The notes beneath the pieces were generated by a model. That model made no database searches. It had not been told where the DNA came from and was given only the letters and a program-made list of their open reading frames with translations. From Eledone cirrhosa (taxonomy: Eukaryota): a stretch of 64,000 bases of DNA. The DNA lies in contig OZ024743.1 of the NCBI GenBank assembly GCA_964016885.1, positions 240,684,001 to 240,748,000 of the forward strand, given 5' to 3'. The translations under genes were made by a program, and so were the position numbers. This document shows, piece after piece, positions 3,565 to 58,164 of the stretch (positions within the stretch are counted from its first letter, which is position 1; each line of letters starts with the position of its first letter).

Positions 3565-5210
3565 TTATATTTCTCTTAGGTCAGTATTGTTTGTTTGGGT
3601 GTTGTTGTTATTCCATTCATTTTTTCTGTTTAGCTTTGGCCTTCTAAGTTCTATTTCGCTGGCCTCTCTGATTTGCCTATCTGCTGGGTCATTTCTATGT
3701 TTAGATATTATTTTAATTTCTATGTTGTCTATGCTACCGTCGTGTTGTTGTCTGGCATGTTCGTATAGTACTGAACCGTTTTTTCGTCCTTTTAGTTCCC
3801 CATAGTGTTGGTCTATCCTTTCACCTATGCTACGAGCTGTCTCGCCTATGTATGTTGTTGACATGTTTCAGCAAGTACCCTCTGTACATCTTATGCTATA
3901 GACTACGTTTCTAGTTTTACAGTTTATCCGGGGGTTTACTTTACATATAATACATTTCCTATCAGTACAGTGGGTTTTCTTAAAAGGGTAGGTTTTGCTG
4001 ATCAGGGATTTTATGGTGGTTCCTGGTTTTTCTAGCACCTTAATCTTTAAGTGGATCTTTCTCAGGGCCTTTCTACACTGGTTAGCTAATTTCCCTCCAG
4101 GGGTAGCGTCCACGAACATGACACTCTGGTATCTCTGGATGTCTAGTCCTATCTAAGCTATTCCATGATTCGCTCCTGTATAATGGGCAAATTCCTTTCA
4201 TGTCCAGTTCTATGAGGGTCTTATACTTCTCCGTGGCTCCTTCGTATACTCTGATTCTGTCTCTTTGGTTGTAGCCAGACAACTGCATGCGGTTGATGAA
4301 GTGTTGGATGTGTCTTTCCATTTCTGCTGGGTCGCACATGCGGGACACGAACTTCATCACTCGTACCAAGTCTGCGATCAGAATATTAAACTTAGCACTA
4401 CTAGACATTGCTGAATTTTTGAGTATCAGGTATTTGTAGGCCATGGGTTTAGCGTAGTGTGAGTGGAGAATTTGGGCTCTCTCGTCTATAGTGTTAATCC
4501 AGAGTTCCGTGTCTAATACAGGTAGTCTATTGTTAGGGTGTTTGGAAGGGTAGTCGATAGTTACAGTTATACTCTGGTGTACGGAATTAGCTATCTGCTG
4601 GATGCTTTCCATTGTGCTACGTTCTAAATCAAACTTGTTAGTACTCTCTTGTGGGGATGTCCTTATTACTATATTGATGTCGTCTACATAACGAGAGTAC
4701 ATGATGAGGTCTATGGAGCTCTCATCAAGGAGATCTTTGAGTCTCCTTTCCCACCATACCATAAAAAGGTTGGCAACGTCACCAGCTATGCTGACGCCAA
4801 TGGCTGCTCCTTCATTTTGGGTGTAGATCTTCTCGTTGAATTTGAATATGTGGCCCTTTAGGGTAGTTTTAATACTAGCCCCTATTGCACGTGCGACCAT
4901 TTTTCTTACCTGATCATTGTTTTGGGGAGTCCGTATGGCTTTGGTCCACCCAGTCCACCTTCCCATGGGAGTTTCTTTTGCCATTGAGGCTATGGTGGGT
5001 GGGGGGGGGGGGAGGGGGGGTCTACCTCTTATGGGTCTACTGGGGCAGAAACGTCTAAGGTCATGGCTGTCTAGGTAGTCAGTGTCATAGGTAAGTCTAA
5101 GTAGGAGGCCCAGTTCGTCTGTGTCGACGTCGCAAAACTCCACCTCACTCTCAATGATCATCTCCACACATTTTTCCACACCAAAATCTATGTTAATGGA
5201 TGGGTATAGT
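3565..5210 (-). pseudogene. Disrupted PLE reverse transcriptase + GIY-YIG endonuclease
   Basis: ORFs 4082-5236, 3868-4119 and 3565-3864 are pieces of one polyprotein. It is broken by a ~30-bp deletion near 4138 (relative to copy 2) and an in-frame TGA at 3868. Confidence 0.9.
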
Positions 5211-7311
5211 GACCGTTGGTAAGTCAATGGCAACATTGAGGACTGAGTAAATTAAATTAACTAGCTGTTGAAACGGCAAGAGCTCAGCCATCGGGTTCCG
5301 ACTCTTTATAATATATATATATATATATATATATATATATATATATATATGCGAAAAGTAAACGAAGAAAAACGCAAGGGAACGATACAGTACAATAAAG
5401 ATATATATTAGTGTAACGTTTAATACATCTAAATACATAACCTTATATAAAATACATTATATACATTGTTTCATTATATGAATTATATTGATTAAATGAA
5501 AACACAAAACATATATCTACATATCTATAGTAATACGTAAATATATTGTAATCTAAGTACCTTCCATCGACAACTACCATAACCCGCCAAATAAAATATT
5601 ACTTCTCCAAAACACACGCACACACATAAAGGCATACATACAAACATACACAGGCATATATGTACAAACAAACATACACAGGCATACACACACACACAGA
5701 CATACTCAACTGAAAGAATGTATTCCATTAGTTTAACCCCCCTCTATGAGAATATAACAGACACCTCAGTGAAAATATGAATAGTTGTGATTTATTTCTA
5801 TATTAAAGGAGCAAAGAAATAAACTTTCCAACTCTGTTATATATGTGTGTGTGTGTTTGTGTGTGTGTGTTTATACATATGTGCTCTCATTCTCTCTCTC
5901 TCTCTCTCTCTCTCTCTCTCTCTCTCTCTCTCTCTCTCTCTATATATATATATATATATATATATATATATATATGCACACACATGCGCGCCTTTATAAC
6001 ATATATTAAAAATATTTATATTGTACATATATTGTTTGTGTCTATCTTCATCTCTCTCTCTCTCTCTCTTTCTCTCACTCTCACTGTCACTCTCTCACTC
6101 TCACTCTCTCTCTTCCTGTACACAAATGTGTATATATGTATATACATCATGGATACCTACACACACACACACACACATATATATATATTTGTATGAAATA
6201 CATAAGTTACATACATACATACCCACAAACTCACCCACAAATATACAAATATACAGTCACATACATACGATCACATGCCTACACACACATGCACATGCCT
6301 ACACATACACACACATACACACATATTTATGTGTTCATGTAACAAACGATTCTTCGTTTTCCCATCATATTCAAATTTTTACACGATATTATATTACATT
6401 TGTAAATTTCTTTAATCATTTCTATATTATTTATTAAAAATATAATAATATAGAAAGAAATGCAATTGTATTTATTACCTTTACTTGTATTTCATTGTTT
6501 CTTAGTCTCACTAAAATCTAATAAACCCAATAAAAACACATTATATGTAAAAGAAAAGACCAACACATTTATTGATAAGTGTAACGTTACTACATATAAA
6601 TGGCTTATTTCTGTATGTTATATGTTTAAACAATTTTTTTTTAGTTTAATAGCTTCGGATAAAGATAACATAAAAAAATATACCACAACAAACACACGCA
6701 AGCATACACACACATGCACATATAGATATACATATATAATATATCTATTTATCTGTCTACGTGCCTGTCTGTCAGTCTCTCTCTCTCTCTCTCTCTCTCT
6801 CTCTCTCTCTCTCTCTCTCTCTCTCTCTATATATATATATATATATATATATATATATATATACACACATACACACAAATGTATATATATATTACATATA
6901 TTATATATATATATATATATATGTGTGTGTGTGTGTGTATGTGTGCGTATATATATACACATACACTACTGGTGAGCTTGATTCAAGTAGACCAGTATCC
7001 ATATAGGTATTCAATAAGTGATGTATGTATTTGGAGTAAAACTCTATGAAGAGTTTGTCTATTCCAGCTCGCCATATCTTGATATTCTCTTTATAATTAC
7101 TAATAAGTTTTATTACAGATGTAAATACAAATACGTCAGTCGTATATTGATCTGAATACATTCGACCCTAGTGACATCATATATCCGTCCACCCAAATAC
7201 AGGCCAATGGATTTGTGTCCTAGAAATAACAGTGATAGGTCACCCCAACCTTCATACTTCTTTATTTAACCCCGTCGTTTACATTTATTATTTTCAGCAC
7301 ACAATACAATC

Positions 7312-7490
7312 ATTGGCAGTATCAGTAGAGGGTCGGACGCCATGCTTTCCAGCATAGTTACGTCCCTTTACGATCTGAGTTCAAATCCCGCTGAGGTTGA
7401 CGTTGCCTTTCATCCTTACAGGGTCGATAAAATAAAGTACCAGTAATGCACTGGACAATTGCTGGCCTTGTGCCTAAAGTAGAAACAATT
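7312..7490 (+). mobile_element. tRNA-derived SINE, family 1 (Meta/MESC-like core)
   Basis: A-box-like tggcagtatc, B-box gagttcaaatccc, core gcctttcatccttacggggtcgataaaataaagtacc, tail gtagaaacaattatt. Confidence 0.85.
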
Positions 7491-56802: not shown

Positions 56803-57937
56803 CTAAAAAATGATTTTTCTGGAATGTTTTTTCATTGGTATTATTATATCTAATGGTATTTCCCCTGTTGTTGTGTGGTCTTGTATAGAAGTTTCGGACG
56901 TATTGAGGTTCGGTTTGTTGATAGTCCGGGTTGTAGATTTGGTTCCTTTGTGTGGGTTGGGATCTATGGTTTTGGAACAGGCTCTGTGTGGGCAGGGGTC
57001 TACGGTTTTGGAATAGGTTTTGTATGGGTTGTGATCTGCGGATCAGGTCCTGCCTTGTGTTCGGGGATCTTTGGTTTTTGTTAGTAGGGTTATAGTTTTG
57101 TCTATGGTTTCTGGGATTATCGTTATAGTTTTGCTGGGGGTATGTTGGACGTTTTGTTACTTTTTTTGTTATTTGTTGTGCATGTGGTGTGTGAGTTTTA
57201 GTTTGTTTTAAAAATGGGTTACCTGTATGTTGTTCATTTTTGAAGTCCATTTCGTAGTTGTTGAACCAGGTGGCGTTTTTTTCCCATCGCTGGAGGGATG
57301 TGAGTTCTTCATCCTCAGAGTTTTCTTTCCAAAGTTTTAGGTTTTTTTTGTAGAGTAGGCCTTCAGAGTGCTTTGAGATTTCTGTGTCCATCTGTTGGTC
57401 GAGTGACTTGAATTTTTCTTCGTTGGAGTTGGCTCTTAATCGCAACAGTTCTATTTCTGTTTTAAATTTTTCCAATGCCATCTTTTCCCTAAGTCTTTGT
57501 TGGTTTTCTGGTTCATTCGGGATGGGTTTTATTTGGAGTTTTTTGGGGAGGATGATTGGGGTAGAGTTTAGCCACTTTTCATATATGTCTGCCTTGCCAT
57601 TATTTTTTAGGAGATTCCAAAGGGCGAATTTGCGGGCTGTGAGCTTTTGAGTCCATATGTTGATTAGGGTGTTTTTCACTGAGTGGACATCTCGTAGATT
57701 GGGTTCTAACGGTTGTTCAAGCTTTTGGAGCATTGCTGTTTCAATGGTTTCGATTAGCTTAGTTAATACTGGAGTAATATTCGTCTCTTGGGTATTTTCT
57801 GTTTCTTCGTGGGGTCCTTTTTTATAGATGTGTATTTGGTCCACTTTGTTGGTCAAAATTGAGAGTTTAGAGGAAATCTCTTTGAGTTCATTTAAGATGT
57901 CCTGGTTCAGTGAGTTGTTGTTTTGTTGAGACTTTGG
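56756..57937 (-). CDS. PLE upstream ORF1, 5'-truncated; helical/coiled-coil-like region followed by a Q/N/R-rich low-complexity tail
   Basis: The frame stays open from the inversion junction (~57937) to TGA at 56756. Charged heptad-like segment QQRLREKMALEKFKTEIELLRLRA; A-rich codon use like the RT frame. Confidence 0.75.
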   Translation of the reverse strand, partial: PKSQQNNNSLNQDILNELKEISSKLSILTNKVDQIHIYKKGPHEETENTQETNITPVLTKLIETIETAMLQKLEQPLEPNLRDVHSVKNTLINIWTQKLTARKFALWNLLKNNGKADIYEKWLNSTPIILPKKLQIKPIPNEPENQQRLREKMALEKFKTEIELLRLRANSNEEKFKSLDQQMDTEISKHSEGLLYKKNLKLWKENSEDEELTSLQRWEKNATWFNNYEMDFKNEQHTGNPFLKQTKTHTPHAQQITKKVTKRPTYPQQNYNDNPRNHRQNYNPTNKNQRSPNTRQDLIRRSQPIQNLFQNRRPLPTQSLFQNHRSQPTQRNQIYNPDYQQTEPQYVRNFYTRPHNNRGNTIRYNNTNEKTFQKNHFLDQGYRTHDTRWHKRF

Positions 57938-58164
57938 TGTAGGACACCTCGGTTATTTTTCATTTTGTAAAAAAAAAAAAAAAAAAAAAAAAAAAACCTC
58001 ACTTTCTAATATATATATATATATATATATATATATATATATATATATATATAAATGAAAAGTATAGAAATATATATATATATATTTCTATTTCACTCTC
58101 GCTTTCTCTCAATCTATGTATATATATGTATATATATGTATATATATGTATATATATATATAGT

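What the first reader, a model, noticed from the sequence alone, without database searches (positions are those of the whole stretch)
5210..58008. Recurrent two-outward-3'-ends layout suggests twin priming from both sides of a (TA)n break
Seen: in many copies the two ends are pLTR 3' portions in opposite orientation. Examples are Neptune (main end 53385, inverted tip 57937-58008), E (52385-52450 against 52451-52556; 15245 against 15802-15833), A (16142, 34431), C (42087-42510) and Nematis (5210-5260). In Neptune and the 52385 E copy the inverted piece is largely pLTR sequence lying beyond where the main copy stops. Known: inverted pLTRs occur at PLE 5' ends, and twin priming is described for L1. 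Inference: (TA)n is self-complementary, so both broken ends offer the same primer, making double priming routine here.
Basis: partly seen in the sequence, partly recalled or inferred. Interest (0 to 1): 0.75.

Follow-up and report, generated by a model that had tools for sequence, protein, structure and literature searches.

The report
Fixed-site twin priming in Penelope retrotransposons
Thousands of copies of these Penelope-like jumping genes sit in TA microsatellites as two back-to-back pieces, nearly always one ending at each of two fixed sites; the shape is already described, but the pattern indicates that both cut DNA strands likely copy the same RNA, and the TA repeat itself probably does not choose the sites.

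Summary
The layout is real and common. At least four Penelope-like families insert in (TA)n as head-to-head arms. In the Neptune-like family each 3' end lies at one of two fixed sites (p1, p2) about 65 nt apart. Pairs were p1+p2 in 56 of 57 (p2-anchored), 37 of 37 (tail-anchored) and 12 of 12 full-length copies.

The arms share donor variants (43/43) and stop together, either arm can reach further upstream (12 vs 10), and inner junctions carry microhomology. This favours two priming events on one RNA over fold-back.

Two claims need correcting. Arms usually overlap: non-overlapping cases like the window's copy are about 5% (Neptune-like) and 3 of 18 (family A). And (TA)n self-complementarity does not pick the sites: a longer TA run inside the element ends at most 34 copies, against over 4,000 for each of p1 and p2.

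The inverted pLTR with a one-sided tail is published, as are two RT start sites in vitro. I found no paper joining them as twin priming. This scan noted the same mechanism before, here and in other genomes. Reads did not confirm the window's junction.

The parts
53385..57936 (-). Neptune-like PLE, long arm; 3' end at site p2 against (TA)n; 5' end a few nt into ORF1
54505..56802 (-). ORF2 (765 aa stop to stop): RT plus C-terminal GIY-YIG endonuclease
   Evidence: Pfam GIY-YIG E 2e-6, RVT_1 E 1e-4 below cut-off
56756..57940 (-). ORF1, no Pfam match
53455..53500 (-). Predicted type I hammerhead with U3-A8 core; predicted cut near 53460
   Evidence: motif read by eye and two helices in the fold; no Rfam hit; core variant described in PMC4209133
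57937..58009 (+). Inverted short arm = pLTR tail only, 3' end at site p1 against (TA)n; 3-nt microhomology with the long arm
53335..53384 (.). (TA)n target, left part
58010..58052 (.). (TA)n target, right part
2695..2896 (+). One-armed Neptune-like stub reading through p2 to p1; starts at the common 5' stop (about -214)
52386..52557 (.). Family E, two arms, non-overlapping: tail arm (-, to ~52445) and ribozyme arm ending at p2 (+, from ~52451)
15245..15833 (.). Family E, long p1 arm (-) plus 32-nt p2 arm (+, 15802-15833) contained in the long arm
16144..16321 (.). Family A, p1 arm (-, 16144-16263) and p2 arm (+, 16265-16321), overlapping
34433..34590 (.). Family A, p2 arm (-) and p1 arm (+), overlapping, 6-nt palindromic overlap at the centre
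60460..60540 (.).
8832..8992 (.).
42099..42507 (.). Family C palindrome: long arm with ~105-nt tail, short arm ending before the tail, 10-nt spacer
3041..5209 (-).
5210..5260 (+). Inverted 51-nt arm ending at a non-canonical site with 4-nt match to the target
5259..5311 (+). ~52-bp direct repeat of 2933-2985 (2 mismatches), likely target-site duplication

Best explanation
These are insertions of endonuclease-bearing Penelope-like elements into (TA)n, made of two head-to-head arms that end at two fixed sites flanking the pLTR tail, and they likely form when both nicked target strands prime reverse transcription on the same RNA, one at each site. Shown: the layout, the two sites, p1+p2 pairing, shared donor variants, junction microhomology. 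Inferred: the endonuclease nicks both strands of (TA)n; the protein (possibly a dimer) holds the RNA so that one 3'-OH starts at p1 and the other at p2, helped by a 2-7 nt TA seed; the p1 copy usually displaces the p2 copy, so arms overlap, and sometimes stops at it, giving the tail-only tips seen in the window; both cDNAs often run off the RNA 5' end (about 214 nt upstream of p1) or stop near the predicted ribozyme cut, and are joined by microhomology or with short inserted bases. One-armed copies from either site are the single-primed outcome.
For: Pairing: 56 of 57 p2-anchored, 37 of 37 tail-anchored, 12 of 12 full-length, 18 of 18 family A, 11 of 11 Nematis-like. One template: diagnostic variants agree between arms 43/43, 28/28, 44/48 against shuffle means 21.8, 19.8, 15.8; both arms stop at the -214 cluster together, Fisher p 1e-7; 0 of 8 and 1 of 13 partners of long arms stop there. 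Two syntheses: the p2 arm reaches more than 10 nt further upstream in 12 of 65, the p1 arm in 10 of 65; each site also makes one-armed copies (26 of 71 and 9 of 70); a T/A tract differs between otherwise identical arms in 11 of 11. Microhomology of 2 nt or more in 24 of 40 clean junctions against 5.5 expected. In vitro, an anole PLE cleaves and extends both strands and starts RT at two sites flanking the tail (PMC11167929).
Against: Overlapping arms need strand displacement, which is not shown here. Two RNAs from one donor locus would also share variants. Deletion at a palindrome centre after insertion could mimic some cases where the p2 arm is longer. 24 of 64 junctions carry inserted or mismatched bases. 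The T/A tract could change at DNA level (one duplicate as control). No empty alleles and no RNA data; no listed record bridged the window's junction in four runs laid. Samples are the first hits on one contig and favour young subfamilies.
Confidence: 0.7

Rival explanations
1. Dual priming: two RNAs of the same donor, one per subunit of an asymmetric dimer, each primed from one strand.
For: Explains overlapping arms without displacement; shared variants fit cis preference.
Against: Needs an extra rule to exclude p1+p1 and p2+p2. Arm stop points are coupled (p 1e-7), and partners of long arms avoid the -214 stop (0/8, 1/13).
Confidence: 0.12
2. Fold-back or self-priming: one cDNA folds back, copies itself, and joins the other target end at the TATA of p2 (akin to the self-priming proposed in PMC3846280).
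For: 43 of 65 junctions are near-perfect palindromes; arms share variants.
Against: Cannot give arms that each hold sequence the other lacks (12 of 65, up to 2.5 kb; 4.5 kb in the window copy) without later deletion; p2 also makes one-armed copies; T/A tract differs between arms; a better TA match inside the arm is ignored.
Confidence: 0.08
3. One reading: (TA)n is self-complementary, so both broken ends offer the same primer and anneal passively to UA-rich RNA sites.
For: 54 of 65 insertions have (TA)4 or more at both ends; every p1 or p2 site whose continuation was seen starts with a TA seed.
Against: Seeds are only 2-7 nt; 27 TATA words lie in the last 1.1 kb and two are used; the internal TA run ends 14 of 30 inspected hits out of 34 genome-wide; no p1+p1 pairs; same layout is published with ordinary TSDs.
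Confidence: 0.08
4. Independent insertions into the same microsatellite, or assembly artefacts.
For: Stacked insertions of several families are common in these (TA)n tracts; the window's junction was not confirmed by reads.
Against: No TA between arms; strict outward orientation (21 of 21); arms share variants; flanks differ on the two sides; junctions differ copy by copy.
Confidence: 0.02

Closest known systems
EN+ Penelope-like element insertions with inverted 5'-truncated pLTR and one-sided tail (PMC8557442, PMC3846280; passages read)
   Same: Head-to-head inverted copy at the 5' end, tail at one end only, palindromes at the inverted junction, partial tandems, microsatellite bias.
   Different: Tails here are about 45-105 nt, not 30-40. 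Those papers invoke endonuclease resolution or self-priming; the counts here point to two priming events on one RNA.
Poseidon PAc of Anolis in vitro (PMC11167929; main text parts 1-2 of 4 and passages read)
   Same: Two RT start sites flanking the tail, internal initiation at the pLTR-ORF junction, both strands cleaved and extended, AT-rich target.
   Different: There the start sites have no homology to the target and strands show no difference in start site in bulk; the paper does not discuss inverted copies. Here sites carry short TA seeds and pair p1+p2 within an insertion.
L1 twin priming and proposed dual priming (PMC2837659; passages read)
   Same: Two inverted fragments of one element, each 3' end at a target nick, microhomology at junctions.
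   Different: In L1 the second site is opportunistic and arms abut with a deletion. Here both sites are fixed, about 65 nt apart, and arms mostly overlap.

Membership tests
EN+ Penelope-like element (C-terminal EN) | RT followed by C-terminal GIY-YIG endonuclease | tested here: met
   (GIY-YIG above cut-off, RT below cut-off); motifs visible for the Neptune-like, A and Nematis-like families; E and C proteins not seen
EN+ Penelope-like element (C-terminal EN) | pLTR from tandem or partial-tandem arrangement | tested here: met
EN+ Penelope-like element (C-terminal EN) | Hammerhead motif in the pLTR | tested here: inconclusive
   core motifs by eye in Neptune-like, E and C; no Rfam hammerhead hit; none recognised in A
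EN+ Penelope-like element (C-terminal EN) | [quoted passage not shown] | tested here: met
Neptune or Nematis clade | RT phylogeny with reference elements | not tested
L1-type twin priming | Two inverted fragments of one template, 3' ends at the target | tested here: met
   (one RNA molecule is inferred)
L1-type twin priming | Arms abut with an internal deletion, no large overlap | tested here: not met
   3 of 65, 3 of 18, 1 of 11 non-overlapping
L1-type twin priming | Second priming site chosen by chance homology to the target | tested here: not met
   fixed site p2; internal TA run hardly used; the window's 5210-5260 arm is an exception
L1-type twin priming | Microhomology at the inner junction | tested here: met
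   34 of 40 clean junctions with 1 nt or more, null 16; 24 further junctions have inserted or mismatched bases
L1-type twin priming | Target-site duplication | tested here: inconclusive
   invisible inside (TA)n; one likely ~52-bp case; no empty alleles

The most novel reading that the evidence does not exclude
Double-strand priming is the programmed integration route of EN+ PLEs: one RNP dimer docks at two fixed sites of a single RNA, assigns one site to each target strand, and makes both cDNAs with strand displacement. The tail is the spacing between the two active sites, and one-armed copies are half-reactions.
Probability: 0.45. Interest if true: 0.7.

Novelty: new variant of a known kind. 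Interest (0 to 1): 0.5.

Why it matters
How PLEs make their inverted repeats and one-sided tails is named as an open question (PMC8557442). The p1+p2 rule and the coupled arm ends give a concrete model that the existing in vitro system can test. A retroelement that writes both target strands itself would differ from R2 and L1 TPRT. Practically, many thousands of small palindromes in this genome are PLE stubs, not MITEs or miRNA hairpins.

Tried and rejected
Rfam: no hammerhead among the 150 of 233 rows shown for the window or in four focused scans; hits were TA-repeat and hairpin noise. Reads: three contig sets of one sample and two RAD-seq runs showed thousands of family copies, but no listed record bridged 57936/57937 (most rows hidden), so this is neither support nor refutation. 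The 20 holders were mostly small shares and were not used. Family C pattern too specific. The top-40 similarity search is biased to read-through copies and was not used for counts. False inverted arms from the element's own 3' UTR (TA)n run were removed before counting. Idea that the window's two arms tile one circular unit: seen once only; 5' ends of 30 full-length copies are spread. A pure structural stop at -214 was rejected: 0 of 18 full-length copies that reach it in the 5' pLTR stop there. Literature searches listed no paper applying twin or dual priming to PLEs; subscription papers and supplements (e.g. Fig. S2 of PMC11167929) were not seen.
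Full report
Setting. The window lies in a 3.0-Gb animal genome and is full of (TA)n tracts. Several Penelope-like element (PLE) families are inserted in them. The best preserved is on the minus strand at 53385-57936, with a 765-aa RT plus C-terminal GIY-YIG frame and an upstream ORF1.

Anatomy. Full-length loci show the unit in partial tandems: pLTR with a predicted hammerhead, site p2, a tail of about 65 nt, site p1, then 26 nt to the ORF1 start. 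Both sites are followed by a TATA word. Positions below count from p1 = 0, give or take one base; p2 is about -66. The window copy's long arm ends at p2. Its inverted tip (57937-58009) is the tail alone, from -57 to p1, joined through 3 shared bases. The other named examples are real, but four of them are overlapping palindromes, and the Nematis-like tip ends at a non-canonical site inside a likely long target duplication.

Frequency. Exact patterns give 8,729 tail hits, 12,884 ribozyme-core hits, 4,423 p1-(TA)n junctions and 4,034 p2-(TA)n junctions, all lower bounds. I examined the first hits in coordinate order on contig C1. Of 71 tail-anchored copies, 37 have an inverted arm starting at p2 (32 by script, 5 by hand), 4 have one starting elsewhere, 26 are one-armed, 4 are unresolved, and none has a second p1. 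Of 70 p2-anchored insertions (75 anchors, duplicates merged), 56 have a p1 partner (46 by script, 10 by hand), 1 is p2+p2, 4 are other, and 9 are one-armed. The two samples share about 16 insertions. Of 20 long loci fetched out of 40 hits (14 chosen for a visible inverted partner, 6 because they ran off the first locus), 12 had both ends at canonical sites, all p1+p2. Family A gave 18 two-armed insertions of 24, all p1+p2 within a few bases. The Nematis-like family gave 11 of 29 within 1.5 kb, and E at least 9 of 28 by eye. C could not be sampled.

One template. In 65 simple two-armed Neptune-like insertions, diagnostic variants agree between arms in 43/43, 28/28 and 44/48 cases, above all 5,000 shuffles; a fourth site was invariant. 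Of 130 inner ends, 75 lie at -198 to -216 and 26 at -110 to -148, near both the predicted ribozyme cut (-142) and an AT palindrome, which I cannot separate. Both arms stop at the first cluster together (32 both, 11 one, 22 neither; p 1e-7). Partners of long arms avoid it (0 of 8; 1 of 13 among full-length copies including the window's). No full-length copy stops at -214 of its 5' pLTR (0 of 18). I infer that stubs come from RNAs that begin there and long copies from read-through RNAs; there are no RNA data.

Two syntheses. Fold-back of the p1 cDNA can only give a second arm contained in the first. The p2 arm reaches more than 10 nt further upstream in 12 of 65, the p1 arm in 10, and 43 are within 10 nt. 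Later deletion could explain some of the 12. Each site also yields one-armed copies. A T(n)A(m) tract in the pLTR differs between arms in 11 of 11 insertions whose arms are otherwise identical, with n+m near 13; one DNA-level duplicate kept each arm's state. This fits separate RT passes, but DNA-level change is not excluded. Of 64 junctions, 40 are clean, and 24 of these share 2 nt or more against 5.5 expected from nearby random positions; 24 carry inserted or mismatched bases.

The (TA)n claim. The target is (TA)n on both sides in 54 of 65, and a TA seed of 2-7 nt follows each site whose continuation I saw, so annealing may help. It does not choose the sites. The pLTR holds a longer TA run at about -130 to -120; only 34 loci have it extended, and 16 of the 30 inspected simply continue into the element. 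The patterns differ in stringency, but the gap is over a hundredfold. Symmetric primers also predict p1+p1 and p2+p2 pairs. PLE copies with 9-10 bp TSDs show the same layout (PMC3846280, passages).

Artefact check. Orientation is strictly outward (21 of 21), flanks differ on the two sides, and junctions differ by copy. Independent short-read data hold the family and show loose ends with TA at the -211 to -214 position, but no listed record bridged the window's own junction. Long-read support is untested.

What is known. The inverted pLTR with a one-sided tail is standard for EN+ PLEs, and its origin is called open (PMC8557442, passages). Opposite-strand hammerhead pairs and the U3-A8 core are described (PMC4209133, passages). 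An anole PLE cleaves and extends both strands and starts at two sites flanking the tail (PMC11167929, parts 1-2 of 4 and passages); that paper does not discuss inverted copies in its main text. L1 twin and dual priming are as in PMC2837659 (passages). Two further papers (a bioRxiv retrozyme preprint, part 1 of 5; PMC13282606, passages) added nothing on mechanism. Six searches listed no paper applying twin priming to PLEs. That PLE RTs lack RNase H, which would leave the RNA intact for a second pass, is recalled, not checked. Eight earlier AI notes of this scan reach a similar reading; I looked them up after forming mine, and they are not independent evidence.

Verdict. The layout is real, frequent and already described. 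It works like twin priming but fails two L1 criteria: the second site is fixed and the arms mostly overlap. Two primings on one RNA at two protein-chosen sites is the most likely mechanism (0.7). Interest 0.5.

Noticed in passing
Neptune-like pLTR, window 53425-53440; loci: T(n)A(m) tract whose boundary shifts between arms and copies while the total stays near 13; mechanism unknown.
   Followed up: partly
window 2933-2985 and 5259-5311: ~52-bp direct repeat around the Nematis-like copy; likely an unusually long target duplication that copied an older A-like stub.
   Followed up: partly
L069, L072, L081: Three of 30 full-length copies have their 5' end at -155/-156 of the upstream pLTR, inside the predicted ribozyme stem II.
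   Followed up: no
window 5209 and 37038: Two 90%-identical Nematis-like copies are 5'-truncated within about 15 nt of each other.
   Followed up: no
window 12709-12838, 41513-41657, 9597-9786, 9049-9405: Further two-armed or hammerhead-like stubs of families not named in the finding.
   Followed up: no
L174, L177, L186, L192, L216, L224, L225: Older Neptune-like subfamily with a rearranged 3' UTR, still p1+p2.
   Followed up: partly
window 21200-21359 (-): 5.8S rRNA-like match above the Rfam gathering score.
   Followed up: no
window 10358-12686: 32-bp minisatellite, 73 copies, 97% matches.
   Followed up: no
window 50188-51314 and 16420-16801: Fragments of another RT-bearing retroelement, likely RTE-like (label recalled), and many copies of a ~190-bp SINE-like repeat across the window.
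   Followed up: no
L048, L156, L103, L119, L255: p2 ends joined to (TC)n or (GA)n next to the TA tract, using pyrimidine-run matches instead of TA.
   Followed up: no
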